Virus record (IMG/VR): IMGVR_UViG_3300025502_000006
Direction: 5' to 3' (one strand)
Origin: an uncultured virus (IMG/VR IMGVR_UViG_3300025502_000006)
Lineage: Duplodnaviria > Heunggongvirae > Uroviricota > Caudoviricetes
DNA: 64,000 bases
Made by a program: the position numbers and the translations under genes. Shown here piece by piece: positions 6,207 to 54,874 of the stretch. The notes under the pieces were generated by a model. The model was not told where the DNA came from and did not search any database. It worked only from the letters and a program-made list of their open reading frames with translations. Each line of letters begins with the position of its first letter. The first letter of the stretch is position 1.

Positions 6207-6224
6207 AAACGGCGCAAGCCGTTT
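6207..6224. terminator. bidirectional intrinsic terminator
   Basis: aaacggc-gcaa-gccgttt hairpin between convergent genes. Confidence 0.75.
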
Positions 6225-6814
6225 TAGTCACGGTTCTGAATTATTTCATCAACTAAGCCATACTCTAAGGCTGTGTTAGCATTCATGAAATTATCACGCT
6301 CCATATCGGCGGACAATATGGCAAATGTTTTGCCTGCTGAATTGTGATGGACATAGATTTCAGTTAAAAACTGTTTCATCTCTAGGATTTCTTTAACTTG
6401 AATTTCCATATCGGTGGCCTGACCTCTTGCGCCACCCGAAGGCTGATGAATCATGTGCCTAGCATGCGGAAGTATTTTACGTTTGCCTTTAGCACCTGCT
6501 TGTGCTAGTAAACTACCCATTGACGCCGCTTGTCCCATAACAATCGTGTTGATGTCTGGTTTAATAAATTGCATTGTATCATAGATGGCCATACCTGCTG
6601 TTACACTACCACCAGGGGAGTTAATATACAAAGAAATATCGGCATCGCTGTTTTCACTCTCCAAGAATAGCAACTGGGCTACGATTAAATTAGCCATAGT
6701 GTCATGCACTTCGCCCTCTAAGAGGATCACACGATCACGCAGTAATCTACTGTAAATGTCGTAACTACGTTCACCACGACTTGTTTGTTCTAAAACTATT
6801 GGTACCAGTGCCAT
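6224..6814 (-). CDS. clpP: ATP-dependent Clp protease proteolytic subunit
   Basis: [17 protein letters not shown], catalytic AASMG (Ser), MIHQP (His), ERDNF (Asp). Confidence 0.98.
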
Positions 6815-6833
6815 AAAATTTCCTCTGTAAATA

Positions 6834-6884
6834 TATTTAGTTGTTGATTCTGTGCAGTATACAGGTTAGGTAAACTACATGCAA
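6834..6884 (-). promoter_or_regulatory. dual promoter of clpP (sigma70-type plus late-type)
   Basis: TTGCAT-N17-TATACT (6856-6884) and CTAAATA (6834-6840). Confidence 0.55.
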
Positions 6885-6893
6885 CACTTTCGG

Positions 6894-7799
6894 TTAAACT
6901 ACTTTAATATTACTAACAAATTGTCTTTGTTTAATTCGTTCTGTTATTTCATTTGGTGATAAATGCGATTGTATTTTTGCTAACGGTATGTTGCCTGCCC
7001 TATTATAGATATGACTATAATTATATCTCGCATCATAAAATTCTTGGTTGCTATCATAATGTTTTTTAAACAGTTTACGATATATATTCCAACTCTCGTG
7101 TGATGTTCCCCAATATCTGATAATAAAATCACTTGCATAGTGTCTGAAGGGTTTCCATGCTTCATCGCCAATGTGGTCATCGTCATCAATTGCCATATCT
7201 TGGAGTGTCTTTCCAATCTCTACATATAATAGATAAATTGTTCCGAACTCATAAAAGTCGGTGAAGTGTGCATAGTCATCATCTTCTAATGTTCTAATAT
7301 GTGGGCCACGTGGTTGATCATAATAAGTTACTAGGTGCGATGGCATCATCTTTCTAACTGTGCCTTCAGCCATAGATTCGCATCTATGTACTTCTAAGTT
7401 TAATTGTCCTAATGCACACTTAACTTCTTTGGGTGCTTCTAAGTAGAATTTGTGCGGTTCGTTAAGCATTCCATGATATATTTCAAAAATATGATGCAAG
7501 TAATTAAGATCATCTTGTTTTAGTTCCAGTGTCATTCGGCGCTTGATAAATCCTGATTTATAGTCATTAATCGTATCTACGCATTTATTGATAGCATCAA
7601 CTGCTCTATGACGTTCTAAAGTCTCTGTATCGAAGCCGTAGAGTCTCCTAGAGTCATTAATGGTGTATATGTCAACTGATTCTGATAGTAAGGTAGCCCA
7701 ACGTTGGGCAATGCTAGTGCTGTTGATGTTGAAATTAAAGGTGAGCGGTTCCAATTGATCAGATGGGTCTGAATAAGTAATGTGTAGTTTTGTATACAT
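6894..7799 (-). CDS. hypothetical protein
   Basis: 301-aa ORF; TAAATA 5 nt upstream of the ATG, no SD. Confidence 0.8.
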   Translation of the reverse strand: MYTKLHITYSDPSDQLEPLTFNFNINSTSIAQRWATLLSESVDIYTINDSRRLYGFDTETLERHRAVDAINKCVDTINDYKSGFIKRRMTLELKQDDLNYLHHIFEIYHGMLNEPHKFYLEAPKEVKCALGQLNLEVHRCESMAEGTVRKMMPSHLVTYYDQPRGPHIRTLEDDDYAHFTDFYEFGTIYLLYVEIGKTLQDMAIDDDDHIGDEAWKPFRHYASDFIIRYWGTSHESWNIYRKLFKKHYDSNQEFYDARYNYSHIYNRAGNIPLAKIQSHLSPNEITERIKQRQFVSNIKVV

Positions 7800-7817
7800 G
7801 TATGTATTTAAGTAATA

Positions 7818-8204
7818 TTATTGTGGCCTAACTAATTCCCATGGTCCGTAAGTTCCATGCTTTTCAACTTTCTCTATCATTTCGTCTCTATTATATTTTT
7901 TGTATTCAGCTGGATTATCAGGATTAATTTGTCCTGCTTTGTAATAAACTTCTTTCCGCATCACAATGTTATTGCCGTTGCTCTTATCGATAACAACATC
8001 GCCCACTTCGACCCAAGCATGTACATGACGGATGCCTTCGATAGGTCCTTGACCAGTGACTACTGCGTGTACCATTGACATATCATTCATATGTGCTTTT
8101 TCGAATGGATTAGAGTCCATTAGTTCTTCTAAGGCAGCTATGAAACAATCACCGCCACCGTTCTCATCTTTCTTACTTTCTATTACAAGTTCAAATGCTC
8201 TCAT
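7818..8204 (-). CDS. putative transglutaminase/papain-like Cys-His-Asp enzyme
   Basis: GDCF...HAWVE...VIDKS motifs; start placed at ATG 8204 (MRAFELVIE) after TAAATA-N5. Confidence 0.55.
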   Translation of the reverse strand: MRAFELVIESKKDENGGGDCFIAALEELMDSNPFEKAHMNDMSMVHAVVTGQGPIEGIRHVHAWVEVGDVVIDKSNGNNIVMRKEVYYKAGQINPDNPAEYKKYNRDEMIEKVEKHGTYGPWELVRPQ

Positions 8205-8313
8205 GTCTATATTTATCAAATCACAAGATAAAAGTTATCAATCTACATATAAACACTAAATACATACACTGACTCTTATATGGGTCTTAACATAAAATAT
8301 AAAGGAGCTACAA

Positions 8314-8703
8314 ATGAAAAATATACAAAAAGGTTTTACATTAGTTGAATTAGTAATTGCCGTTGCTTTAGTTGGGGTGCTATCTGTTGTAGCAATTCCC
8401 AAGATAACAGGCGTATCTGATGATGCACGTGTGGCCGCTTTGAAAGGGGTTGCAGGAGCATTATCATCTGCCAGTGTTCGTAACTATGCAATACGTGGTG
8501 CAAACAATGCTAATGGTTATGAAGTTACTCAGTGTGAAGATGTAGTAGATATACTTGAAGGTGGGGTGTTGCCTCAGGGATTTGAACTTGCAGGAACAGA
8601 TGGAGTCGATCCAGTGGCTGCTGAAGCAAAGGTTGAATGTACATTAAGTACTACAACTACCCCAGTACAAACCACAACATATACTGCTTACGGTATCGCC
8701 TAG
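8314..8703 (+). CDS. type IV pilin, MSHA-like
   Basis: Class III signal peptide MKNIQKG|FTLVELVI (G-1, F1, E5), hydrophobic helix ending IPK, DARVAALKGVAGAL, two Cys. Confidence 0.92.
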   Translation: MKNIQKGFTLVELVIAVALVGVLSVVAIPKITGVSDDARVAALKGVAGALSSASVRNYAIRGANNANGYEVTQCEDVVDILEGGVLPQGFELAGTDGVDPVAAEAKVECTLSTTTTPVQTTTYTAYGIA

Positions 8704-8793
8704 ATTTAATATTCGAATCGGGCTAGAAACACTAAATAGATATGATGATCCTTATTTAAGGATCCAAACATAACTTACATAATGGAGTAACAA

Positions 8794-9192
8794 ATGAAAA
8801 ATATTAAACGATCTAAGAAAGGTTTTACATTAATTGAATTAGTAGTATCAGTTGCAGTAGTTGGTGTGTTGGCAGTTGTTGCCGCACCAAAGGTTGCAGG
8901 AGTTGCAGGCGATGCTCGGACTGCGGGAATCGATGGTATGGCTGCTTCATTGGCAACTGCATCAAGCATGAACTACAACGAACGAAAGAAGTTATCAACA
9001 AACGGTAATGCGGTAATTACTTGTACCGATACTCCTGCTTCACTAGCTGGTGGAACTCTGCCAGGCGCTTATGTATTCACATTGGATGACGGAGATGTTG
9101 AAATTCTGCCAGGCGAGACAGGACTTTGTAGAATCAGTACCCTTAGCACACCAGTTGCTACTGCTGAATATTTAGCATACGGCATAGAGTAA
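8794..9192 (+). CDS. type IV pilin, MSHA-like (paralogue)
   Basis: KKG|FTLIELVV...AAPK, DARTAGIDGMAASL, two Cys; C-terminus YLAYGIE matches YTAYGIA of the first pilin. Confidence 0.92.
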   Translation: MKNIKRSKKGFTLIELVVSVAVVGVLAVVAAPKVAGVAGDARTAGIDGMAASLATASSMNYNERKKLSTNGNAVITCTDTPASLAGGTLPGAYVFTLDDGDVEILPGETGLCRISTLSTPVATAEYLAYGIE

Positions 9193-9205
9193 CACAAGCA
9201 AGAAC

Positions 9206-9234
9206 CTGAGGGCCAGATCGGCCCTCAGTATTTT
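9206..9234 (+). terminator. intrinsic terminator after the pilin pair
   Basis: ctgagggcc-agatc-ggccctcag followed by tatttt. Confidence 0.8.
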
Positions 9235-9255
9235 AACAATACTTAGGAGTTAAAC

Positions 9256-9459
9256 ATGGAATATCTACTAATTGGTTTAGTAGTCGTGGTCACCGTTTTG
9301 TTCTTTATCAAGAGAAACGATGAAAAAACAGCCAGTGAGCTACAACCGAAAGTTAAAGAGAAAGCCGCAAAACCAGTAAAAAAAGCACCCGAGAAGGCGC
9401 CGGCAAAGAAAGCACGTGCTAAAAAAACAACAGCTACGCCGCTGAAAGTTCTTAAGTAA
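9256..9459 (+). CDS. small membrane-anchored Lys/Ala/Pro-rich protein
   Basis: AGGAG SD; N-terminal hydrophobic helix, basic low-complexity tail. Confidence 0.75.
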   Translation: MEYLLIGLVVVVTVLFFIKRNDEKTASELQPKVKEKAAKPVKKAPEKAPAKKARAKKTTATPLKVLK

Positions 9460-9475
9460 AGAGCAATAATAAACT

Positions 9476-10207
9476 ATGGTTGATATCGGATTTGATGTAA
9501 TCGGTGACCTTAATTTAGAACCAAACGATTCGTTTAATTGGGAATCCAAAACTACGAGTTTGTATTGTATTCTAAGTGGGAACATTAGTTCTGATATGAG
9601 AACTGTGATTCAAACCTTAGTCCATCTCAGTCAATTGTACCAGGGTGTATTTTTTACACCTGGTTTATTAGAATATGAAACTAGTAAACTTGATATAAAC
9701 AGGCGAACTGCTGAACTCGTGAGTTTGGCCGAGAAAGTCCCCAACATTATTATATTACATCACAATATCATTATTGTTGATGGTGTTGCCATTATTGGTT
9801 CAAACTGTTGGGAAAATGCTCACGAGCCTGGCATGTCTGTCTCTATCGAAGATTTAAAGTACAACCAATATCGATTAGACGATATGGGTTTCTTACACAA
9901 AACTATAGAAAAATTACAACGTCACATGGATGTTAAAAAGATTGTCCTTGTTACCAACGGTGTCCCTAATTCCAACTGCTATTTCGGCGAAGTGCCTGAT
10001 TACGCAGAGAGTCAAATTCCATTAGATACAGTATTAAATGCCGATACTGAAGGCAAGATAACTCACTGGATATATGGATCGTACAGCAAACCAGTAGAAG
10101 CAACTCTGCTTCTACCTAGAAAAAATGACTTGATTGCGATTAGTAATCCACTCGTAGAAAAGGACATGAAACACTATCATCCAAAACGTCTTACTGTTTC
10201 GGTTTAG
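9476..10207 (+). CDS. divergent calcineurin-like metallophosphoesterase-fold protein
   Basis: DVIGDLNL, ILSGNI, VLVTNGVP, HWIYGS: family layout with metal ligands substituted. Confidence 0.6.
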   Translation: MVDIGFDVIGDLNLEPNDSFNWESKTTSLYCILSGNISSDMRTVIQTLVHLSQLYQGVFFTPGLLEYETSKLDINRRTAELVSLAEKVPNIIILHHNIIIVDGVAIIGSNCWENAHEPGMSVSIEDLKYNQYRLDDMGFLHKTIEKLQRHMDVKKIVLVTNGVPNSNCYFGEVPDYAESQIPLDTVLNADTEGKITHWIYGSYSKPVEATLLLPRKNDLIAISNPLVEKDMKHYHPKRLTVSV

Positions 10208-10518
10208 GCTTCTGCTTCCACTTTAATTTGTAAGGGGAATCCCTTAGATCGTGCATCAAGTGTTACCTCAATACCCTTTTGTTCTGCGATTTCATATGGT
10301 AAGACTGCTACAATAGCACTGCCCTCTGCATGGATATCACTCGTAATAGTAGATGCGGTATCTGGATTATAACTGAAAAAATCACATAGAGATTCTACCA
10401 CAAACTCCATAGTCGTGACTTCATCATTGATATAAATCACCTTAAATAACGGTGGCTCTTGTAATGCAAAATTGGGTTTGATCTTACCTTCGGTTGTTAC
10501 ATTAAATTCTTCTGACAT
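10204..10518 (-). CDS. clpS: Clp protease adaptor ClpS
   Basis: PPLFKVIYINDEVTTMEFVV...IHAEGSA...EIAEQK...FPL. Confidence 0.93.
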   Translation of the reverse strand: MSEEFNVTTEGKIKPNFALQEPPLFKVIYINDEVTTMEFVVESLCDFFSYNPDTASTITSDIHAEGSAIVAVLPYEIAEQKGIEVTLDARSKGFPLQIKVEAEA

Positions 10519-10621
10519 AATAATTACCCATTGTGATAAAGTTAAAAAGTGTGCGTAGTGGTATCGATCGGCTGTCTATTTCGATTTTTTTCTGTCACTA
10601 CACACACTATACCCTATAATA

Positions 10622-11128
10622 CTATTTAGCGGAGGAAATGTCAATCTTTCTGGGTTTTAACTCATCCGGAAGTTGACGTTCTAAACTAACTCTTAATATG
10701 CCATTAATCATATCAGCACCAGTCACAATAACGTGATCAGCAAGTGTGAACGCTCTGGCGAACGTTCTATTACTAATACCCCTGTGCAAATACTCTGGCT
10801 CGTTTATAGAACTGGCTATTTCTGTTACGTCCACCTCAACTTTTCCAGCGCCAGTTAAGGAGTCTCCTTTTGTTGTAGAAATGGTTAATTGGCTTTGATC
10901 TACTTCAATGTCAATTGCATCTTTATCAATACCAGCAAGTGCTAGTTCAATAAAAAAATGATCATCGTCGATTTTAATAACATTGTACGGAGGATAATTA
11001 TCCTTGCCCGCTATTGTTGCTAGTCGATTGAGGTCTGCAAGCATAGAATCGAAACCGATTCCGAATTTGTGGATTGAGGGGATGTCTAAATGATTTAGGC
11101 GGATGCCTAGTCTGTTGCTATTGCTCAT
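10622..11128 (-). CDS. small heat-shock protein (Hsp20/IbpA-like)
   Basis: IGFD, YPPYNV, YLHRGIS.R.F.R.F.LAD, NGIL.V.L, KPRKIDI. Confidence 0.96.
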   Translation of the reverse strand: MSNSNRLGIRLNHLDIPSIHKFGIGFDSMLADLNRLATIAGKDNYPPYNVIKIDDDHFFIELALAGIDKDAIDIEVDQSQLTISTTKGDSLTGAGKVEVDVTEIASSINEPEYLHRGISNRTFARAFTLADHVIVTGADMINGILRVSLERQLPDELKPRKIDISSAK

Positions 11129-11218
11129 GGTGTTCTCCTTTAATAAAGCAAGTTTACTATTTGGACCCTTTCGGCATCCATGTGATCAGAAACCTATCTT
11201 CTCACATAACTATTTATC
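11129..11218 (-). promoter_or_regulatory. late-type promoter and ROSE-like structured leader of hsp20
   Basis: GATAAATA, hairpins (ATGTGA..TCACAT; GGATGCC-GAAA-GGGTCC), then CTTGCT positioned against the AAGGAG SD. Confidence 0.65.
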
Positions 11219-11231
11219 ATTATACAACGAG

Positions 11232-11519
11232 TTAGTATTTTTTGGTACCACGTGATCCTGGCTGTAGAGACAATCTTTTTTGTTCTCGTTTGATTGCGGC
11301 GGCCTTTTTAAGTTTGCGTTTTGAGGTAGGTTTCTCGAAATACTCTCTTTCTCTAACTTCGATAAGCAACCCTGAATTAGAAACTTTTTTCTTAAATTGA
11401 CGTAATGCTTGTTCCACATTGCCGTTTATTACCGTGACAGCGTTGCCAATTGGTTGTTGGGTGTATGATTTTTTTGATGAATTAAAATTATTTTTGTAGT
11501 CAGTATTTTTATATGTCAT
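11232..11519 (-). CDS. rpsU: 30S ribosomal protein bS21
   Basis: NVEQALRQFKKKV...REREYFEKPTSKRKLKKAAAIKRE. Confidence 0.93.
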   Translation of the reverse strand: MTYKNTDYKNNFNSSKKSYTQQPIGNAVTVINGNVEQALRQFKKKVSNSGLLIEVREREYFEKPTSKRKLKKAAAIKREQKRLSLQPGSRGTKKY

Positions 11520-12712
11520 ATAATTGTTTTTGGGTTTATTATTAAGTCCTTATCTATATTTAGCTCGGTAATACCCTTTCTTTTATATTTACCAACGTTA
11601 AACATATGAGGCATTAAAACTCTCTCGATTTCCGATTGTAATCCTCTTGCACCAGTTTTAGTGTTGATGCAATTAACCACCATCTCTTCAATGGCATCCT
11701 CGGTAAAACTTAGTGTAATGCCATCGATACCAAGCAAATAAATATATTGATCGATGAAGTTGTTTTTTACTGAAGTAAGTACTTTTATTAATTCATTCTT
11801 GGATAACTCTGCAACACTAATTGATGTAGGGAATCTACCGATAAACTCTGGAATCATTCCGTATTTCATCAAGTCTTTGGGTGTCACATCAATGAAGTGT
11901 TCAGCTTGATCTTCTTTGAGTTTTGATACAAAACCAATACTTGTTCCTGTAGTTCTGGATTTGATAACATCTTGTAAACCATCAAAGGCTCCACCTGCAA
12001 TAAAGAGTATGTTTGTTGTGTCAATCTCAACGAGGGGTTCCTGCGGATGCTTACGTTTACCATTAGGAGCAACTCGACATATAGTACCCTCTACTATCTT
12101 CAATAGTGCTTGTTGGACGCCCTCCCCGCTAACGTCACGTGTTATAGAGGCGTTCTCACTCTTACGTGCGATTTTGTCTATTTCATCTATGAATATAATA
12201 CCACGTTCTGCTTTCTCGACATCATCACCAGCTTTTGATAACAGGACGCCTAACATGCTCTCTACGTCATCTCCTACGTATCCTGCTTCTGTTAAATTAG
12301 TGGCATCAGCAACGATAAAGGGAACATCTAAGTACCTTGCTACAGTTTGTGCAAGTAATGTTTTACCACACCCAGTTGGACCAAGTAACAGAACATTACC
12401 TTTATGTATTGTTAGCCCTTTTGGCGGTGGATTAAAAACTCTTTTGTAATGGTTTGATATCGCGACCGCTAGAACTTCTTTAGCAGTAATTTGGCCAACA
12501 ACATACTTGTTTAGGTGTCGCATGATAGATTGTGGATCCATGCTCTTTGGAGGGTCGTTGGCCTTTACAGGTACTTGTTCATCCTCTATTAGTTGCTGAC
12601 AAAGCGATACGCATTCTGAACAAATCGCGACATTTTCTCCAACAATTAATTTAGTAACAATTTCCTTAGGATTGCCGCAAAACGAACAGTTTACTTCTGA
12701 TTTATCACTCAC
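11516..12712 (-). CDS. clpX: ATP-dependent Clp protease ATPase subunit ClpX
   Basis: C4 zinc finger CSFC...C..C, Walker A GPTGCGKT, GYVG pore loop, DEIDK, RKH and IGF loops. Confidence 0.97.
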   Translation of the reverse strand: MSDKSEVNCSFCGNPKEIVTKLIVGENVAICSECVSLCQQLIEDEQVPVKANDPPKSMDPQSIMRHLNKYVVGQITAKEVLAVAISNHYKRVFNPPPKGLTIHKGNVLLLGPTGCGKTLLAQTVARYLDVPFIVADATNLTEAGYVGDDVESMLGVLLSKAGDDVEKAERGIIFIDEIDKIARKSENASITRDVSGEGVQQALLKIVEGTICRVAPNGKRKHPQEPLVEIDTTNILFIAGGAFDGLQDVIKSRTTGTSIGFVSKLKEDQAEHFIDVTPKDLMKYGMIPEFIGRFPTSISVAELSKNELIKVLTSVKNNFIDQYIYLLGIDGITLSFTEDAIEEMVVNCINTKTGARGLQSEIERVLMPHMFNVGKYKRKGITELNIDKDLIINPKTII

Positions 12713-44989: not shown

Positions 44990-45715
44990 TTACCGAGTGT
45001 CCACAAATGCCTTTTCTATTACAAATTCGCCTCTTGCTCTATTCGAACCCTCAGTCATGCCCATCTCGTTGCACCATTCAACTACCGCATAATTAAATTG
45101 AAGATTGCCACATGCCATTACCCTGTCATCTTCTTTTAAGAATCTAGCGTCAATTCGAGCATCACCTTCTCCAGTAACTATCGCAGTGTATTCAAGTTTG
45201 TCTTTGAGATAATCATATATATCTGGCTCAGTATATTGGTATGCCTCAGTAAGTTCGTCATAGTAGGCCAAGTCTTTGCGGTCTCTAACACTATGAACTA
45301 AATGTATGTGGTCGAATCGTTCCATGATGGCTAAGTCATTGATAGTGGATATGAACGGAGCAAGGCCTGTACCAGTTGCTAATAATAATAATCGCTTACC
45401 ACCATCACTAAGAAAGTCATTGCGCAAAGTGCCTGTGCATTTTGGTAAAAGTAATAACTCATCACCGAATTCTACCTTTGATAATTCGTTCGTTAACGGA
45501 CCAACGTTCTTAATGCTCAAGAATTCTAGGTAGTCAGCCCATGGTGGACTAACAATACTATATGCTCTGATAACGTTCCGTTTGTATTTTTCACTGTAGA
45601 GTCCGATCATTGCGAACTCACCAGAATTGAATCTGAACGTATCGCTTCTTGTTGTTCTAATACTACAAGTGCGATCTGACCAGTGTGTTACTTTAGTGAT
45701 TCTTTCTTTTAACAT
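44990..45715 (-). CDS. fpr: ferredoxin/flavodoxin-NADP+ reductase
   Basis: RAYSI, GPLT, TGTGLAPF, CGN, EKAFV. Confidence 0.92.
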   Translation of the reverse strand: MLKERITKVTHWSDRTCSIRTTRSDTFRFNSGEFAMIGLYSEKYKRNVIRAYSIVSPPWADYLEFLSIKNVGPLTNELSKVEFGDELLLLPKCTGTLRNDFLSDGGKRLLLLATGTGLAPFISTINDLAIMERFDHIHLVHSVRDRKDLAYYDELTEAYQYTEPDIYDYLKDKLEYTAIVTGEGDARIDARFLKEDDRVMACGNLQFNYAVVEWCNEMGMTEGSNRARGEFVIEKAFVDTR

Positions 45716-45731
45716 CTATTTTTTCCATGCA

Positions 45732-45817
45732 TGGTACTCGGAGCGAGATTCGAACTCGCAAGCCCGTTAAGGCGGGAGATTTTAAGTCTCCTGTGTATAC
45801 CCTTCCACCACCCGAGC
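45732..45817 (-). tRNA. tRNA-Leu (anticodon UAA)
   Basis: GCTCGGG acceptor stem, GGAGA-CTTAAAA-TCTCC anticodon arm, long variable arm, GTTCGAATC, encoded CCA. Confidence 0.96.
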
Positions 45818-45827
45818 AAAATTCGTA

Positions 45828-46055
45828 CTATTGGTCCGTCTCCTTAGACGGGACTTCCCAGTGCATCTGTTTTTCAATAGCATACCGTGATCCTTGGATA
45901 TAGTCTCTGTCTTCTTCACTTAATATTTCCCATGCAAAACTCAGTTTATCATCAATCAAAGTGGTACATTCGTCTGGGTCTACTAAGTGATGATTGCTTT
46001 CCATCCATGCTTGTAGTTGATCCATTCTGCCGTTTAACTTTTCTCTTAAATTCAT
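45828..46055 (-). CDS. hypothetical protein
   Basis: 75 aa, AAGGA SD, promoter TTGACT-N17-TATACT at 46095-46123. Confidence 0.75.
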   Translation of the reverse strand: MNLREKLNGRMDQLQAWMESNHHLVDPDECTTLIDDKLSFAWEILSEEDRDYIQGSRYAIEKQMHWEVPSKETDQ

Positions 46056-46207
46056 AGACTATCCTTATATGAAGGAAGGTCTCTCTAGTACGTTAGTATA
46101 CAACTAGCAGTATGTAAAGTCAACCTTCCTCTTCCATTTATATTTAGAGTTATTATAACATGTTATTTTTTTTTATCAACAACCTATTTATCCAATTAAA
46201 TACTATT

Positions 46208-46759
46208 ATGGATACAACGTCATTCTCGCACGGACAAACACAAAGTAAACTTTGGTTGTGTGAAAAGCTAGAACCACTTCTACCAGATAACGCAGTTGTT
46301 GCTGTATTGGGATGCTGGTACAATGTGCTTGGTTTTATGTTATTGACTAGATGCAAAAGCAAGTATCAACACATATTAGGGATAGATATTTCGCCGGAAG
46401 CGATTGCAGGGGCAGACAAGATATGTCAAGGCTTTATGATCGGAGATGATGCGCGACTCCGAAACGATTGTGCTGATGCAGGAACCGTTAACTTGCAAGG
46501 ACAGCAAGTGGTCATCAATTGCAGTGCCGAACATATGACTGATGATTGGTTTGGTAACGTCGATCCATCAACACTGGTGTGCATCCAAACTAGCAACGTG
46601 AACGAGCCGGAAGCACCCTGGCTCGTTACCAATCCTGTTACGACACTTGATGACTTTGCAAAAAGATTCCCAATGAGTCGAACGATGTTATTAGAAAAAA
46701 TACACTTTGATTATGGAAGTTTCTCCTATGACAGGTATATGCTAATCGGTCGAAAGTAA
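46208..46759 (+). CDS. class I SAM-dependent methyltransferase-like protein
   Basis: SKLWL, VLGCWYN, GIDI, INCSAEH, RYMLIGRK; start at ATG 46208. Confidence 0.75.
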   Translation: MDTTSFSHGQTQSKLWLCEKLEPLLPDNAVVAVLGCWYNVLGFMLLTRCKSKYQHILGIDISPEAIAGADKICQGFMIGDDARLRNDCADAGTVNLQGQQVVINCSAEHMTDDWFGNVDPSTLVCIQTSNVNEPEAPWLVTNPVTTLDDFAKRFPMSRTMLLEKIHFDYGSFSYDRYMLIGRK

Positions 46760-47901
46760 TGTATTTGTACCCAGACATTAGAACTGTTCATTTAGAGATT
46801 ACTGAAAAATGCAATGCCGCTTGTCCGATGTGTGCTAGAAATATCAATGGAGGAGAAGACAATCCATGGCTTAAGAATGCTGAACTATCGTTGTCAGATA
46901 TACAAACTATCTTTCCAGATGATTTTATCAAACAATTAAATCATATGTTTATGTGCGGTAACTATGGTGATCCTATCGTAGCAAAAGACACATTAAAAAC
47001 TATGAAGCATTTTAGAAGTATCAATCCAAATATCTTTTTAAGCATGAATACAAATGCATCTGCTAGAACAAAAGACTGGTGGAAGGACTTGGCGTCTACT
47101 ATAGGAAGCCATGGATACGTTGTGTTTAGCATCGATGGATTAGAAGACACCAACCATCTTTATCGCAAGAACACAATTTGGAAGAAAATCATGGATAATG
47201 CTAGGGCCTTTATAGAGGCTGGCGGCATTGCACGTTGGGAATACATTGTTTTTGCACACAACGAGCATCAAGTGGAGGAAGCAAGAGCATTATCTGAGTA
47301 TCTAGGCTTTGCTGAATTCCAAGTTAAAACATCTTCTAGGTTCTTTTCTAGTGTCTCGGGAACTACTAAATCATATATCAAAACTATCGACAGGCATGGC
47401 TCTGAAATAGATATCAGACCGCCCAGAGGCGCATCCTACGAGAACTTATCGACTAAAAAGATGTCGAGTATGACCGAAGAAAAGGACATGATTTTTCCAA
47501 CGAAAAAGGTAGATTTATTAGGGAAATTAAACCCAGAATTATTTGATCCTAGGTCTAAAGTTCAGCACCACTATGACACAACTACAATCAAATGTAAAGT
47601 TAAAGAAGAAAAAAGTATATACGTCAGTGCTGAAGGGATACTGCAACCTTGTTGTTGGGTCGCTGGACAAATGTACAATTGGTATCATACCCCAAAAGGG
47701 AGCCAGATTTGGAAATACATCAACGCCGTAGGGAAAACCAACATCAGTGCATTGAATTATACAATAGAAGAAATTTTAGAAAATAACTATTTTGAATCGA
47801 TAGAAAATAGTTGGAATAAGCCTAGTTGTAACGAAGGAAAGTTGCAAGTGTGTGCAAAGACATGCGGTACAAATGATGCTTTCACACAACAATACCTATA
47901 A
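46759..47901 (+). CDS. radical SAM protein with C-terminal Twitch/SPASM-like cysteines
   Basis: CNAACPMC, GNYGDP, TN, SIDG; KCK...PCCW...CAKTC. Confidence 0.93.
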   Translation: MYLYPDIRTVHLEITEKCNAACPMCARNINGGEDNPWLKNAELSLSDIQTIFPDDFIKQLNHMFMCGNYGDPIVAKDTLKTMKHFRSINPNIFLSMNTNASARTKDWWKDLASTIGSHGYVVFSIDGLEDTNHLYRKNTIWKKIMDNARAFIEAGGIARWEYIVFAHNEHQVEEARALSEYLGFAEFQVKTSSRFFSSVSGTTKSYIKTIDRHGSEIDIRPPRGASYENLSTKKMSSMTEEKDMIFPTKKVDLLGKLNPELFDPRSKVQHHYDTTTIKCKVKEEKSIYVSAEGILQPCCWVAGQMYNWYHTPKGSQIWKYINAVGKTNISALNYTIEEILENNYFESIENSWNKPSCNEGKLQVCAKTCGTNDAFTQQYL

Positions 47902-47946
47902 TATAAGCAGGCTGGCATATATAGTACATAAGGAGAAAAATACAAT

Positions 47947-48066
47947 ATGCTAGAAGTGTTACGTAAAAAATACAAGAAATTTAATAAAATAATGAAAAGT
48001 GGGAGACTCCACAAAGTTTGGAAAAATTCAATCTTACCAAAGAAAACAGTTATACCATCTAACTAA
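47947..48066 (+). CDS. 39-aa basic peptide (not in ORF track)
   Basis: AAGGAG SD; MLEVLRKKYKKFNKIMKSGRLHKVWKNSILPKKTVIPSN. Confidence 0.55.
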   Translation: MLEVLRKKYKKFNKIMKSGRLHKVWKNSILPKKTVIPSN

Positions 48067-48994
48067 GATTTATCACAGTGTCACTGATTTTACTACAAAA
48101 ATAATCAGATACCATTTGATTGGACATTTTACTCATATGTCTATAGTCTCGATTGCGATAAAAATATGATTTACACTTAGGTGTTATCAATTTTAAAAAG
48201 AAATATCCATCCACATCACTTAACAAATTACCGATTTCGTTATGTACAGCCAACTGTTGATAGATAGCGTCCAATGATGGCCATTTAGATGTGGACATCA
48301 TTATATAATCTGGGGTGAGTAAAAACATAAAAATGTCATATGGTATTTCTGAAAAGTTAAGGTTTATATCCTTTATATAGTCGTGTGCATCTGGAAAATG
48401 CCGAAATAAAATGTCTGATTGATTCTTCTCCCAGCACCATGGTGGAATAAATGCTATCTCAGACCCATGTGGCCATTCATAGGATTTAAGAATGTGTATT
48501 TTTTGTTCAGTTGTGTTAGCGTCCGCAAGTTGGTCTGCTGTCGCACCACCATGTAAATTAAACAAACAAAACGTATGTTGTACGTCAAAATATTTTCGCA
48601 TCTTCTCTACGATCAGGTGATACGAATCGGGTCCTAGTCCGTCTACTCCCCCATTCAGAACTGGTAGTTTAACTTTTTTTTGTAACAAACTAGGCCAGCT
48701 ATGTTCTAACGGACCACCAACATTCATTGTAAAACTGTCACCAATAGCTAATATGATTTTTGCTTTCTTACCGTCTTGGTTTAAGTCTTCATAGTTGTAG
48801 TCCGCACGAAATCCCCATGAGTTAAATGTATAGTCAAAATCTTGGACAGGGTATAGTTTCATATACGCACTATAGAAAGGCAGTTGCCTGAACATCAGAT
48901 CAGATGCACAATGAGTTACCGTTTTGTTTCTATATTTTAATAATTGACGCCAGAGTTTTTTTGGTAGGCCAAAGCCCGCGGGAGTCATATCCAT
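48059..48994 (-). CDS. SGNH hydrolase-like protein
   Basis: NSWGFR, IGDSFT, NGGVDG, RDYRH. Confidence 0.75.
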   Translation of the reverse strand: MDMTPAGFGLPKKLWRQLLKYRNKTVTHCASDLMFRQLPFYSAYMKLYPVQDFDYTFNSWGFRADYNYEDLNQDGKKAKIILAIGDSFTMNVGGPLEHSWPSLLQKKVKLPVLNGGVDGLGPDSYHLIVEKMRKYFDVQHTFCLFNLHGGATADQLADANTTEQKIHILKSYEWPHGSEIAFIPPWCWEKNQSDILFRHFPDAHDYIKDINLNFSEIPYDIFMFLLTPDYIMMSTSKWPSLDAIYQQLAVHNEIGNLLSDVDGYFFLKLITPKCKSYFYRNRDYRHMSKMSNQMVSDYFCSKISDTVINLS

Positions 48995-49017
48995 TTATAC
49001 TTTTTTTTCCGGGGTAT

Positions 49018-49188
49018 CTACTTCGGTTTTCGTAATTTCAGGAGGGTCATTATCTGGTGTCTCTGAAGGGTGCTGTAAGAGAGCCAACCTGCGATTTCGT
49101 TGGAGGTTCTTTTGCAACCTAAGCACATTCCTTCTGCTGTCATTTGACATTGTTTAATGCAGGGTGATTCAATCTTCGGACCTTTCGT
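49018..49188 (-). CDS. DUF1289-like Cys-rich (putative Fe-S) protein lacking a canonical start
   Basis: Manual translation IESPCIKQCQMTAEGMCLGCKRTSNEIAGW; only ACG/ATT/ATA/ATC codons available upstream of the Cys motif. Confidence 0.7.
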   Translation of the reverse strand, partial: TKGPKIESPCIKQCQMTAEGMCLGCKRTSNEIAGWLSYSTLQRHQIMTLLKLRKPK

Positions 49189-49561
49189 GTTTTTTCCGAT
49201 AATTATTTACTGCTGTTTTAATCGCATCTTCTGCTAAGACCGAACAATGGATCTTGACTGGCGGGAGTGCGAGTTCTTGTGCGATTTGAGTGTTTCTAAT
49301 TGCTTCTGCTTGGTCGATGTGCTGTCCTTTGACCCATTCTGTGAGGAGACTACTTGATGCAATTGCAGACCCGCACCCGTACGTTTTAAACTTAGCATCT
49401 TCTATGACTCCATCGTCGTTAACTCTTATTTGTAATCGCATTACGTCTCCGCATGCTGGTGCGCCCACCATCCCAGTACCTACGTTATTGTCAGCATCAT
49501 CCATCGTACCGACATTGCGAGGATTTTCATAATGATCTAATAATTTTTCACTGTAAGCCAT
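49169..49561 (-). CDS. iscU: Fe-S cluster scaffold IscU
   Basis: DHYENPRNVG, GAPACGD, GCGSA, LPPVKIHCS. Confidence 0.98.
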   Translation of the reverse strand: MAYSEKLLDHYENPRNVGTMDDADNNVGTGMVGAPACGDVMRLQIRVNDDGVIEDAKFKTYGCGSAIASSSLLTEWVKGQHIDQAEAIRNTQIAQELALPPVKIHCSVLAEDAIKTAVNNYRKKHERSED

Positions 49562-49582
49562 AATTAACTCCTTTGTATTATA

Positions 49583-50716
49583 CTATTTAGTCTTGGTCTT
49601 CTTCTTTTTATTTGGTGTTTTAGGAAAAAGATCAATCTGTTCCCAAGGCAAATAAGGTTTGCCGAAGTGACCGTAGTTTGTAGTTGCACTGTAGATAGGA
49701 GAAAATAGATCAAACCTATCAATAATACCCATAGGTGACAAGTCTACATTTTCTCGTATCCACTTAGTCAAGCCTCTGCTATCTTTGTCACTTTCGACAT
49801 AGACACTTGTAGGTTGTTCTACTCCAATTGCATAACTTAATTGAATAGTTGCCCAGTCAGCCTGACCAGATGCTACGATATTCTTTGCTAGATAACGAGC
49901 CATGTATGCCGCAGATCGATCTACTTTCGAAGGGTCTTTTCCTGAGAATGCTCCACCTCCATGCGGGGCACTTCCCCCATATGTGTCAACAATAATCTTT
50001 CTACCTGTCAGGCCTGTGTCTCCATCTGGTCCACCGATCACAAATCTTCCTGTAGGGTTGATTAAGAATTTTGTCTGGTCATCAACCAACTCTTCTGGTA
50101 CAGTTTTAAGAATAAGTTCTTTAATTTGTTCTCTCACTGTATCAATATCTATCTCTTCTGCGTGTTGAGTAGAGCATACTATGTTGTCTATACGCCTGAC
50201 TGTGGAATCGTCATTGTATTCGATAGTTACTTGTGATTTTGAATCTGGACCCAGCCATGGAAGAAGTCCTTGCTTTCTAACAACAGCTAACATTTCTACA
50301 ATTCTATGAGAATAGTATAGAGGTGCAGGCATGTAATTATCTGTTTGATTGCATGCATAACCAAACATTATGCCTTGATCTCCGGCACCGAATTTATCAG
50401 TGCCTAAAGCAATATCAGGTGACTGACCATGTAATAGATTAGTCACTTGTAAGTTGTTCCAATGAAAGCCGGGTTGCTCGTAGCCGATGTTCTTGACTAC
50501 TCTTCGGACTAGATATTCAACATCTAGGTTGTCGATTTCGCCTTTGTATTCTCCAGCAACGGTGACTTGATTAGTTGTAACCAATGTCTCGCATGCACAT
50601 CTTAATGCAGGATTTTTATGTTGCATGAACGAATCTAAAATTGCATCGCTAATAGCATCTGATACTTTGTCAGGATGTCCTTCACTTACACTTTCACTTG
50701 TAAAATAATAACTCAT
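49583..50716 (-). CDS. metK: S-adenosylmethionine synthetase
   Basis: FTSESVSEGHPDK, GAGDQG, GGGAFSGKD; promoter TTGATC-N17-TATAAT with embedded TAAATA at 50742-50770. Confidence 0.98.
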   Translation of the reverse strand: MSYYFTSESVSEGHPDKVSDAISDAILDSFMQHKNPALRCACETLVTTNQVTVAGEYKGEIDNLDVEYLVRRVVKNIGYEQPGFHWNNLQVTNLLHGQSPDIALGTDKFGAGDQGIMFGYACNQTDNYMPAPLYYSHRIVEMLAVVRKQGLLPWLGPDSKSQVTIEYNDDSTVRRIDNIVCSTQHAEEIDIDTVREQIKELILKTVPEELVDDQTKFLINPTGRFVIGGPDGDTGLTGRKIIVDTYGGSAPHGGGAFSGKDPSKVDRSAAYMARYLAKNIVASGQADWATIQLSYAIGVEQPTSVYVESDKDSRGLTKWIRENVDLSPMGIIDRFDLFSPIYSATTNYGHFGKPYLPWEQIDLFPKTPNKKKKTKTK

Positions 50717-54274: not shown

Positions 54275-54553
54275 CTAAGGTACAAACACATTGTCAGAGC
54301 CTTCAACGATCTGGTGACCACAATCATTACTTGAGCCTACCCTAAGAACAGGTTTACCTTCACAAAATACAGTAGGACTGCCGTCGGTGGTCTTTGCGGC
54401 TTTGTGCGGTTTTTTGTTTGGTTTGGGTCCGTGAGGACTGATATCACTAACATGTAAGCCTATAGGTTTGCCATTGGCGAATACGGTAGATGCACCTTTA
54501 AGGATTTTTCCACCTGTAGTATTCTTATCTCCTTCTCGACTTAGTTTAGCCAT
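54275..54553 (-). CDS. PAAR-like spike tip protein (T4 gp5.4-like)
   Basis: REGD..GG.I..G..TVFANG...H...H...GSPTVF..G.PV.RVG...CGH...GSDNVF. Confidence 0.9.
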   Translation of the reverse strand: MAKLSREGDKNTTGGKILKGASTVFANGKPIGLHVSDISPHGPKPNKKPHKAAKTTDGSPTVFCEGKPVLRVGSSNDCGHQIVEGSDNVFVP

Positions 54554-54559
54554 GTAGTG

Positions 54560-54874
54560 TTATCCCATTACTATTTGCTTATTTGGTACTGTTATACCTG
54601 TTGTTGCTTCTCTGTATTTGTCTCTAACTGAGGTCTCAGTTTCGGCAAAGAGTGACACGCTAGTACTATTTAGTGTTACGGGTAACAGCGGATCGTAGGT
54701 GAACAGACTAGGGATAAGTCCCATACCTTGTGGACCTGGTGCACAAGAAACAGGATGTTCGATAATAATATCGCCACCTTGACTGTCAAGGTCAGTTACT
54801 TTTGCAATTAATTCTTCACCACTGCTTAGTTTAAATGTGTAAACTGTATTTATTTTTATATCTGCTATATTCAT
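54560..54874 (-). CDS. conserved-looking phage protein (Sm-like fold suspected)
   Basis: KLSSGEELIAK...Y...TTGI. Confidence 0.7.
   Translation of the reverse strand: MNIADIKINTVYTFKLSSGEELIAKVTDLDSQGGDIIIEHPVSCAPGPQGMGLIPSLFTYDPLLPVTLNSTSVSLFAETETSVRDKYREATTGITVPNKQIVMG

What the first reader, a model, noticed from the sequence alone, without database searches (positions are those of the whole stretch)
8255..9234. Self-contained phage cassette of two MSHA-like type IV pilins under late-type promoters
Seen: two paralogous full-length pilins with intact prepilin-peptidase sites (G|F...E5), two Cys each and matching C-termini. Each is preceded by ACTAAATA (8255, 8731), a GA(C/T)C-stem hairpin and an SD, and the pair is closed by a terminator. 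No pilus assembly genes occur in the window. Established: class III signal peptides are processed by host PilD, and type IV pili are common phage receptors. Inference: the phage supplies its own subunits to the host pilus machine. This could mask or jam a receptor (superinfection exclusion), change host adhesion, or act as released decoys. The phage-type regulatory signals suggest domestication rather than a recent passenger.
Basis: partly seen in the sequence, partly recalled or inferred. Interest (0 to 1): 0.85.

Follow-up and report, generated by a model that had tools for sequence, protein, structure and literature searches.

The report
Giant phage carries two MshA-type pilins
A very large phage from salt-lake metagenomes carries two intact copies of the building block of a bacterial adhesion pilus, probably to remodel its host's pili during infection, a trick already reported for a few other viruses.

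Summary
Window 8314-8703 and 8794-9192 encode two full-length type IV prepilins that are 48% identical. Each has the G|FTL(V/I)E cleavage site, G14, P22 and two conserved Cys. Each follows ACTAAATA, a small hairpin and an SD. A strong hairpin terminator (9206-9228) closes the pair.

The window is a large phage (about 350 kb by CheckV estimates on fragments). Contigs from four further runs bridge both junctions with no differences, so it is not a misassembly.

Pil1 nests inside a clade of bacterial MshA major pilins (59-66% identity). One of these sits in a complete MSHA-type pilus operon. Pil2 is a long-branch relative.

The cassette is lineage-specific. None of 13 syntenic relatives has a pilin, and their slot holds other cargo. 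Third-codon GC matches the phage, and CTAAATA recurs upstream of genes in this phage group. It matches the published Aeh1 late-promoter variant.

Most likely the pilins are processed and polymerised by the host MSHA machine. This would mask a receptor or sustain adhesion. No step of that was tested.

Viral pilins are already in print: archaeal SNJ2, Pseudomonas prophage P-FimU, and PilA-like genes in T4-like phages. At least 72 IMG/VR loci carry prepilin genes. This is a new member of a known kind, of moderate interest.

The parts
8252..8262 (+). AACACTAAATA motif upstream of pil1 (putative phage CTAAATA-type promoter, 52 nt before the ATG)
   Evidence: motif class per PMC1524935
8271..8286 (+). 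5' leader hairpin GACTC-N6-GGGTC
   Evidence: -6.1 kcal/mol, z -1.61, weak; aligned with the pil2 hairpin, one compensatory pair
8314..8703 (+). pil1: MshA-type type IVa major prepilin, 129 aa, 7-aa leader, cleavage between G7 and F8
8728..8738 (+). AACACTAAATA motif upstream of pil2 (56 nt before the ATG)
8747..8764 (+). 5' leader hairpin GATCCTT-N4-AAGGATC
   Evidence: z -1.64, weak
8794..9192 (+). pil2: divergent type IVa prepilin, 132 aa, 10-aa leader, cleavage between G10 and F11
9206..9228 (+). terminator-like hairpin (9-bp stem, 7 GC) followed by TATTTT; closes the cassette
9256..9459 (+). small TM + Lys-rich protein conserved in relatives; marks the right flank of the variable slot (not part of the cassette)
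7818..8219 (-). 133-aa ORF conserved in 6 of 13 related loci; left flank of the slot (not part of the cassette)

Best explanation
The cassette is a horizontally acquired pair of MshA-type major pilin genes. It sits in a variable cargo slot of a roughly 350-kb, virulent-looking phage. It is transcribed from the phage's own CTAAATA-type (T4/Aeh1 late-like) promoters and ended by an intrinsic terminator.

Inferred mechanism:
1. The prepilins insert into the host inner membrane.
2. The host prepilin peptidase cuts them at G|F.
3. The host MSHA-type assembly machine (MshE ATPase, MshG platform, MshL secretin) polymerises them.
4. The pili of the infected cell, and the debris after lysis, then carry phage-specified subunits with a conserved assembly helix and a diverged exposed head.

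The most likely pay-off is receptor replacement or masking against pilus-binding phages, including the phage's own progeny. Sustaining host adhesion after host shut-off is the close second.

Shown here: gene identity, phage residence, lineage-specific acquisition, compositional amelioration, recurrent promoter-like motif, terminator.

Inferred only: expression, timing, processing, incorporation and pay-off. My odds are about 0.55 that the products enter host pili, and about 0.3 that the pay-off is exclusion.
For: - **Pilin identity.** N_methyl/TIGR02532 hits are above cut-off. G-1, F1, E5 and two Cys are invariant. G14 and P22 are read from the sequence. AF2 models have pLDDT 84.7 and 89.5, with a 53-residue alpha1 helix and a small alpha/beta head. 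The best PDB sequence hit is Shewanella MshA 9lab_B, E 4.8e-11.
- **MshA kinship.** Pil1 lies inside a 24-sequence clade (support 96/90) with a short branch of 0.14. One clade member, P0013 (60% identical), lies on a 660-kb contig directly after an MshE-like ATPase with the c-di-GMP motif and a GspF/PilC platform. Four minor pilins and an MshL secretin follow it.
- **Full-length subunits with a conserved assembly helix.** Against 8 aligned relatives, residues 8-60 are 68-81% identical and residues 61-129 are 42-64% identical.
- **Real phage resident.** The exact proteins occur on 12 contigs each. 14 of 24 listed runs hold at least half of the sampled words. Contigs of 4 runs not flagged as the source are 100% identical and bridge both junctions, with no joints or loose ends.
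- **Long residence.** GC3 is 0.215 and 0.271, against 0.29-0.38 for phage genes and 0.49-0.51 for bacterial homologues.
- **Phage regulation.** ACTAAATA is enriched in the window. In the window plus 8 relatives, 20 of 53 CTAAATA copies lie sense-oriented at -75..-12 of starts, against 2.6 expected. The same motif heads the alternative cargo of the slot in relatives. The identical 11-mer lies upstream of the PAAR spike gene. CTAAATA is the Aeh1 late-promoter consensus (PMC1524935, passages).
- **Precedent for the mechanism.** The SNJ2 viral pilins use host PilB/PilC (PMC12426801: abstract, passages, Discussion). Prophage P-FimU is incorporated into pili and blocks adsorption (PMC12952977: abstract, sections 17-18).
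Against: - No expression, processing or pilus data exist, and no RNA run was listed.
- The host is unknown, so it is not shown that it has an MSHA machine or that this phage or its rivals bind pili.
- 0 of 13 related phage loci carry pilins. The 128-kb relative G405 has none by motif search. The genes are therefore dispensable for the phage family.
- The promoter reading is by motif only. 7 of the 20 upstream CTAAATA copies are one orthologous site inside clpX coding sequence. The copy before clpP is not conserved in 9 relatives, which have a sigma70-like TTGCAT-N17-TATAAT there. AT-rich intergenic DNA inflates such counts. No gp55-like factor was identified in the parts scanned.
- Late timing would suit exclusion poorly unless the aim is to protect released progeny.
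- The structure searches gave only weak matches: Foldseek found none at E<=0.001, and VIA Z was at most 5.2.
Confidence: 0.55

Rival explanations
1. Host-function maintenance (an auxiliary gene). The phage supplies MshA so that the infected cell keeps making adhesion pili after host transcription is shut off. This holds the cell on particles or biofilm where new hosts are dense. Competing phages play no part.
For: The cassette lies inside a block of host-like maintenance genes (ClpP, ClpS, Hsp20, S21, ClpX), with MetK, IscU and RNR elsewhere in the window. Pil1 is a conservative, short-branch member of the MshA clade. The SNJ2 viral pilins promote biofilm and motility (PMC12426801, abstract).
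Against: Two divergent pilins are more than replacement needs. Pil2 matches no database pilin above 46%. The relatives do without pilins. Nothing shows host shut-off or a long latent period.
Confidence: 0.22
2. Poison or jamming subunits. The pilins enter the machine but block extension or retraction, or titrate the prepilin peptidase. This shuts down pili, and possibly type II secretion or DNA uptake, in the infected cell.
For: Sztanko et al. propose inhibition as an alternative for the truncated PilA-like phage proteins, and note that FimU overexpression disrupts assembly (PMC12952977, sections 17-18). Pil2 is highly diverged, with a branch of 1.36.
Against: Both proteins are full length and keep every invariant assembly residue (F1, E5, G14, P22 and both Cys). 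Neither looks like a truncated or defective subunit.
Confidence: 0.1
3. Neutral passenger. A recently captured bacterial fragment that is carried along without any function for the phage.
For: It is lineage-specific, with 0 of 13 relatives carrying it. It lies in a slot whose content varies among relatives.
Against: Both ORFs are intact with all conserved residues. GC3 is fully ameliorated, and the best bacterial identity is only 66%. A phage-type motif and a terminator frame the genes. The sequences are identical across 12 contigs, and four further runs labelled 2018 hold them without a difference.
Confidence: 0.1
4. Assembly artefact or bacterial contamination. The pilins belong to a bacterial chromosome and were joined to phage DNA in error.
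For: The nearest homologues are bacterial.
Against: Contigs from 4 runs not flagged as the source bridge both junctions at 100% identity, with no joints or loose ends and similar depth on both sides. No bacterial homologue exceeds 66% identity. GC3 is phage-like.
Confidence: 0.01

Closest known systems
SNJ2 provirus pilins PilA1/PilA2 of Natrinema sp. J7 (Xiang et al. 2025, PMC12426801)
   Same: Two tandem, paralogous, virus-encoded type IV major pilins. The virus has no assembly genes. The pilins were captured from the host. In SNJ2 they are shown to use the host PilB/PilC.
   Different: SNJ2 is an archaeal, temperate pleolipovirus, and its function is demonstrated (dominant pili, receptor for a second virus, biofilm). 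Here the virus is bacterial and MSHA-type, a very large phage with no integrase seen in the window, and the function is untested.
P-FimU of F10-like Pseudomonas aeruginosa prophages (Sztanko et al. 2026, PMC12952977)
   Same: A phage-encoded pilus subunit that replaces the host's own subunit. In that system it blocks pilus-binding phages. It has a conserved promoter.
   Different: P-FimU is a minor (tip) pilin expressed from prophages. Here there are two major-pilin homologues on a phage that looks virulent, under a late-like motif.
PilA-like proteins of virulent T4-like phages (Aeromonas Biquartavirus, Synechococcus Atlauavirus; Table S3 of PMC12952977) and PHROG 3433 'pilin'
   Same: Full-length prepilin-like genes in large virulent myophages, with function untested. 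IMG/VR holds many more: 72 of 74 loci carry a prepilin ORF and 19 of these carry 2-3 in tandem.
   Different: These match pil1 only over the N-terminal 40-60 residues. tblastn of pil1 and pil2 finds nothing in 50,697 GenBank phage records even at E<=1. The present pair belongs to the MshA clade, at 59-66% identity to bacterial operon genes.
Bacterial MshA (MSHA major pilin; Shewanella oneidensis MshA pilus, PDB 9lab)
   Same: Best solved-structure sequence hit (E 4.8e-11, N-terminal 57 residues). The nearest homologues are named MshA by their sources, and one lies in a full msh-type operon.
   Different: No msh operon surrounds the phage genes. The head domain is much smaller than in Shewanella MshA (129 aa against 171). 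Structural similarity is weak (Z 4.0-5.0).

Membership tests
Type IV pilin (class III signal, PF07963/TIGR02532) | Short basic leader ending in Gly, then F/M-T-L-x-E with Glu at +5 | tested here: met
   MKNIQKG|FTLVE and MKNIKRSKKG|FTLIE. PF07963 at 32.4 and 34.4 bits against a 21.2 cut-off. TIGR02532 at 30.6 and 32.6 bits against 16.3.
Type IV pilin (class III signal, PF07963/TIGR02532) | Long N-terminal alpha1 helix with a hydrophobic first half, followed by a globular alpha/beta head | tested here: met
   AF2 gives helices 10-62 and 13-66 followed by strands, at pLDDT 84.7 and 89.5. The top weak structural rows are all pilins, but Z is at most 5.2.
Type IVa major pilin | C-terminal disulfide-bounded D-region (two conserved Cys) | tested here: met
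   C74 and C109 are invariant in 24 of 24 aligned sequences. The disulfide itself is not testable here.
Type IV pilin (functional) | Cleavage and N-methylation by prepilin peptidase, then polymerisation by a pilus machine | not testable with these tools
   No peptidase or assembly gene is in the window. The host is unknown.
MshA (MSHA major pilin) | Closest kin are major pilins encoded in msh-type operons (mshE, mshG ... mshL) | tested here: met
   Pil1 lies in a 24-sequence clade (96/90) with P0013, which follows an MshE-like ATPase and a platform gene and precedes minor pilins and MshL. For pil2 this is inconclusive (long branch; AU test p 0.123).
MshA (MSHA major pilin) | The gene itself lies within an msh operon | tested here: not met
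   The phage flanks are unrelated genes. The proteins are therefore filed as MshA-type homologues, not as part of an MSHA system.
T4-type late promoter | TATAAATA/CTAAATA element at about -13 to -6, with no -35 element | tested here: met
   ACTAAATA lies at 8255 and 8731. No sigma70-like site above background was found (6 found against 8.5 expected). For enrichment; for the consensus see PMC1524935.
T4-type late promoter | Recognition by a phage gp55-type sigma factor, with late, replication-coupled timing and a mapped start site | not tested
   No gp55-like hit appeared in the ORFs scanned in the window or in G405, but no dedicated search was made and the genome is incomplete.
Phage-encoded pilus-subunit replacement (P-FimU / SNJ2 PilA type) | A pilus subunit homologue encoded by a virus that lacks the assembly machine | tested here: met
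Phage-encoded pilus-subunit replacement (P-FimU / SNJ2 PilA type) | Incorporation into host pili and an altered phage adsorption or host phenotype | not testable with these tools
   Needs the host and bench work.
Intrinsic terminator | GC-rich stem-loop followed by a U-run | tested here: met
   A 9-bp stem with 7 GC pairs, -20.1 kcal/mol, z -4.8. The tail TATTTT meets the scan's rule but is short.

The most novel reading that the evidence does not exclude
A virulent giant phage expresses two different MshA-type major pilins late in infection from T4/Aeh1-like late promoters. The host's MSHA machine then builds phage-specified pili. The cell and its lysis debris no longer capture the phage's own progeny or rival pilus-binding phages. 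This would be the first case of major-pilin receptor replacement by a lytic bacterial virus, and the first viral use of the MSHA system. The slow-evolving pil1 would act as the assembly-competent scaffold and the fast-evolving pil2 as the antigenically shifted surface.
Probability: 0.2. Interest if true: 0.65.

Novelty: new member of a known kind. Interest (0 to 1): 0.4.

Why it matters
Type IV pili are among the commonest phage receptors and drive bacterial attachment. Virus-supplied pilus subunits have only just been shown to work, in an archaeal provirus and for a Pseudomonas minor pilin. For major pilins of virulent bacterial phages the idea is still only proposed.

This locus is a clean test case. 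The two pilins have bacterial kin that can be placed in a defined pilus system (MSHA). They sit under phage-type signals, and the phage recurs in many runs from one kind of habitat. The survey made here also suggests that tandem prepilin genes are widespread in large marine phages, so a functional answer would generalise.

Tried and rejected
- **Complex prediction, pil1 with pil2 (mature parts, own alignments).** No verdict, score 0.01. This is not evidence either way.
- **RNA evidence.** No RNA holder was listed among 24 runs, so expression is untested.
- **Own genome.** It is not held. The nearest record, G001, ends at window 23574 and does not reach the cassette.
- **Genome-contig scan.** A sample of 401 genomes of one order gave 11 matches, the best at 41% identity. 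Neither found the 59-66% relatives. Donor and host therefore rest only on source names (Halioglobus sp. MAG, Ca. Azotimanducaceae MAG).
- **Gp23 capsid family search in 4 virus records.** Nothing rang, controls included, so it is uninformative.
- **Foldseek against PDB.** No match at E<=0.001 for either model. VIA-align Z was at most 5.2. These are too weak to stand alone.
- **Leader homology between the phage and bacterial mshA genes.** Both have a GAC..GTC-type hairpin about 35 nt before the ATG, but the alignment shows similarity only at the SD and the first codons. I dropped it as evidence.
- **Origin of pil2 (in-phage duplication or separate capture).** Unresolved. The free tree separates pil1 and pil2, but the AU test does not reject them as sisters (p 0.123).
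- **Hairpins as significant structures.** Not supported on their own.
- **Jumbo-phage comparative review PMC7824862.** It has 0 occurrences of pilin, pilus, pili or prepilin.
- **Phrase search for phage-, virus- or prophage-encoded pilin.** It found 1 paper.

Full report
**What is there.** Window 8314..8703 (+) encodes a 129-aa protein (pil1) and 8794..9192 (+) a 132-aa protein (pil2).
- Both match the prepilin N-terminal methylation motif above the curated cut-offs: PF07963 at 32.4 and 34.4 bits against 21.2, and TIGR02532.
- The leaders end in Gly and are followed by FTLVE or FTLIE. Mature positions 14 and 22 are Gly and Pro (read).
- The two proteins are 48% identical over their full length.
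- In a 24-sequence alignment, G-1, F1, T2, L3, E5, two Cys and the C-terminal Gly are invariant.
- AlphaFold2 models are confident (pLDDT 84.7 and 89.5). They show a 53-residue N-terminal helix and a small alpha/beta head.
- Structure searches gave only weak matches. Foldseek found none at E<=0.001, and VIA-align Z was at most 5.2. The top rows for both models are type IV pilins, including the Shewanella MshA pilus.
- A profile of pil1 and its close relatives finds Shewanella MshA (9lab_B) as the best solved chain, E 4.8e-11, over the N-terminal 57 residues.

**Signals around the genes.**
The window has 11 copies against 4.6 +/- 1.9 in shuffles, and 0 of 100 shuffles reach 11.
- The 11-mer AACACTAAATA is exact at both pilin genes and once more at 54667(-), upstream of a PAAR spike gene.
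- The two leaders align from the motif to the ATG. The hairpin arms differ by one compensatory pair, C:G to U:A.
- Each hairpin alone is unremarkable: z about -1.6, and 12 and 15 of 200 shuffles fold as well.
- The terminator at 9206-9228 is strong (-20.1 kcal/mol, z -4.8, 0 of 200 shuffles), with a short T-run.
- Sigma70-like sites are not above background: 6 found against 8.5 expected.

**The window is a phage, and the cassette is really in it.**
- The nearest held record is an IMG/VR virus fragment that is 100% identical to window 23574-60911, with a CheckV completeness of 10% for 37 kb.
- The window carries ClpP, ClpS, Hsp20, ribosomal protein S21, ClpX, ATP-dependent ligase, RNR, MetK, IscU, PAAR and a head-decoration-like giant protein, among many ORFs of unknown function.
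- A 128-kb relative (CheckV 37%) has a family-B DNA polymerase, clamp loader, endolysins, virion proteins and PhoH. The genome is therefore of the order of 350 kb.
- The exact pil1 and pil2 proteins each occur on 12 contigs in public assemblies, the longest 135,574 bp.
- 24 runs, all labelled salt lake metagenome, hold part of 7600-9900, and 14 hold at least half of the sampled words.
- I laid the contigs of four runs not flagged as the possible source. All pieces are identical to the window. One piece spans 7882-9701, across both junctions. Others span 7600-8558, 8470-9900 and 8745-9721. There are no joints or loose ends.

**Where the genes came from.**
- Pil1 has 171 database relatives at E<=0.001. 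Apart from its own cluster, the best are 59-66% identical. Their sources name them MshA or prepilin, from MAGs called Halioglobus sp. and Ca. Azotimanducaceae.
- One of them (P0013, 60%) lies on a 660-kb contig (GC 51%). It sits directly after an MshE-like ATPase carrying the MshE-related c-di-GMP motif and a GspF/PilC platform. Four minor pilins follow and, further on, an MshL secretin. The bacterial kin are therefore major pilins of MSHA-type pilus operons.
- In a 74-sequence tree, pil1 sits inside a 24-sequence clade (96/90) on a short branch (0.14). Pil2 is a long branch (1.36) outside that clade.
- The AU test does not reject pil1 and pil2 as sisters (p 0.123). In-phage duplication with fast divergence, and capture of a tandem pair, both remain open. 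Tandem MshA-like paralogues do occur in bacteria, with three in a row in one MAG.
- Pil2's best database match is only 41-46% identical.
- The assembly helix is the conserved part. Against 8 aligned relatives, pil1 residues 8-60 are 68-81% identical and residues 61-129 are 42-64%.

**How long the genes have been in the phage.**
- Thirteen IMG/VR loci keep the order clpP, 301-aa gene, (133-aa gene), slot, small Lys-rich membrane protein, 243-aa gene, clpS, hsp20, S21, clpX. Their proteins are 48-94% identical to the window's. None has a pilin by tblastn at E<=0.001.
- I read the slot in eight loci. Two near-duplicates of L027 were left out, as were three loci that start inside or after the slot. 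In these eight the slot is 2.0-3.7 kb and holds minus-strand cargo. All eight have a protein of about 410-530 aa, seven of them also a 167-aa HExxH protein, and six of those seven also a nuclease-like 137-aa protein.
- The pilins are thus a lineage-specific replacement in a variable slot.
- Against recent capture, third-position GC is 0.215 and 0.271. That is at or below the phage's own genes (0.29-0.38) and far from the bacterial homologues (0.49-0.51).

**The promoter-like motif.**
- In the window plus eight relatives' loci, CTAAATA occurs 53 times. 20 copies lie sense-oriented 12-75 nt before a start codon, against 2.6 expected from the 5% of sequence in such windows.
- This is less independent than it looks. 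Seven copies are one orthologous site before S21 inside clpX coding sequence. Four are the head of the alternative slot cargo. Two are another orthologous pair. AT-rich spacers also favour such words.
- The copy before clpP in the window is not conserved in 9 relatives, which have TTGCAT-N17-TATAAT-like promoters there. In 5 of 8 relatives the small membrane protein has TTGAC(A/T)-N17-TA(C/G)AAT, which the window lacks because the terminator occupies that place.
- Nolan et al. (PMC1524935, passages seen) give TATAAATA as the T4 late consensus and CTAAATA as the late motif of T4-like phage Aeh1.
- 'Late-type promoter' is therefore a reasonable label by motif. No gp55-type factor, start site or timing was established.

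**Mechanism.**
- Shown: two intact MshA-type major pilin genes reside stably on a giant phage, framed by a phage-type motif and a terminator, with no assembly genes nearby.
- Established knowledge: class III signal peptides are cut by the prepilin peptidase, and pilins are polymerised by the ATPase, platform and secretin machine.
- Inferred: the host supplies these, and the infected cell's MSHA pili come to contain phage subunits.
- The pay-off is open. I rank the options as follows:
  1. Receptor replacement or masking against pilus-binding phages, including protection of progeny from debris, which would fit late expression.
  2. Upkeep of adhesion.
  3. Jamming of the machine.
  4. No function.

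**Comparison with what is known.** Virus-encoded pilins are in print.
- Xiang et al. 2025 (PMC12426801; abstract, passages and Discussion read) show two tandem pilins of the archaeal provirus SNJ2 that use host PilB/PilC. They dominate the cell surface, serve a second virus as receptor, and promote biofilm.
- Sztanko et al. 2026 (PMC12952977; abstract and sections 17 and 18 read; Table S3 partly seen, rows 395-396 not seen) show prophage P-FimU incorporated at the pilus tip, blocking adsorption.
- Sztanko et al. also list untested PilA-like proteins in Xylella prophages and in virulent Pseudomonas, Aeromonas (T4-like) and Synechococcus (T4-like) phages.
- PHROGs has a 'pilin' family, which pil1 and pil2 match only over the N-terminus.
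- My IMG/VR scan found 74 loci with prepilin relatives. 72 have a prepilin ORF by motif and 19 of these have two or three in tandem. The five loci I annotated carry PhoH, endonucleases, CobS/CobT-like genes or primase.
- Against that background the present pair differs in three ways. It belongs to the MshA clade. It has no detectable homologue in 50,697 GenBank phage records even at E<=1. It combines a conservative copy with a fast-evolving one.
- A phrase search for phage-, virus- or prophage-encoded pilin found only the SNJ2 paper. A jumbo-phage comparative review does not mention pili.

**Verdict.** This is a new member of a known kind, of moderate interest (0.4). Its main value is as a well-defined test case for major-pilin replacement by a virulent phage.

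Noticed in passing
window 6224-12712; loci L020-L032: A conserved phage block encodes ClpP, ClpS, Hsp20, ribosomal protein S21 and ClpX. It is kept in order in up to 13 related IMG/VR contigs, with proteins 48-94% identical. This amounts to a phage-borne Clp proteolysis and chaperone set plus S21.
   Followed up: partly
L020 3185-5886; L024 2467-5372; L025 5087-8001; L026 3217-6903; L027 4344-8001; L030 1347-4888; L031 5799-8001; L032 5675-7640: The slot that holds the pilins in the window holds other cargo in relatives. This includes a nuclease-like 137-aa protein, a 410-530-aa unknown and a 167-aa HExxH protein on the opposite strand, plus extra genes in some loci. It looks like a hot spot for cargo exchange.
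   Followed up: partly
loci L203-L276 (IMG/VR): 74 viral contigs encode prepilin-type proteins. At least 19 have two or three in tandem, often next to PhoH in contigs that look like marine T4-like phages (five loci annotated). They share only the N-terminal 40-60 residues with pil1.
   Followed up: partly
window 54667-54677 (-), upstream of the PAAR gene 54275-54553 (-): The third exact copy of AACACTAAATA lies about 115 nt upstream of a PAAR spike-tip gene, inside the preceding ORF. It may be a shared late promoter.
   Followed up: no
window 6815-6890 and relatives: clpP is preceded by a sigma70-like TTGCAT-N17-TATA(A/C)T in the window and in 8 of 9 relatives. The small membrane protein before the 243-aa gene has TTGAC(A/T)-N17-TA(C/G)AAT in 5 of 8 relatives, but the window lacks it.
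   Followed up: partly
G004:C26:14582-15705 (genome of L033): A MAG titled Coxiellaceae carries three tandem MshA-like pilin paralogues, each 44-48% identical to pil1.
   Followed up: no
L114 687-1139, 1955-2401, 8685-9077(-); L115 2788-3180: A 24-kb metagenome contig (GC 44%) has three scattered pilin paralogues of the pil1 clade, with no assembly genes in the 10 kb held. All share a conserved leader (a GAC..GTC hairpin, then CTAGGA(G/A)(T/C)TAT before the ATG).
   Followed up: no
window 44990-50716: A cluster of host-like metabolic genes: an NAD-binding oxidoreductase, tRNA-Leu(TAA) at 45732-45817, a radical SAM protein, IscU/NifU and S-adenosylmethionine synthetase. IscU is also preceded by ACTAAATA (49584-49591, minus strand).
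   Followed up: no
G405 (L280 1244-5959): The 128-kb relative carries QueE-, QueD- and GTP cyclohydrolase-like genes (7-deazaguanine pathway), which suggests DNA modification in this phage group.
   Followed up: no
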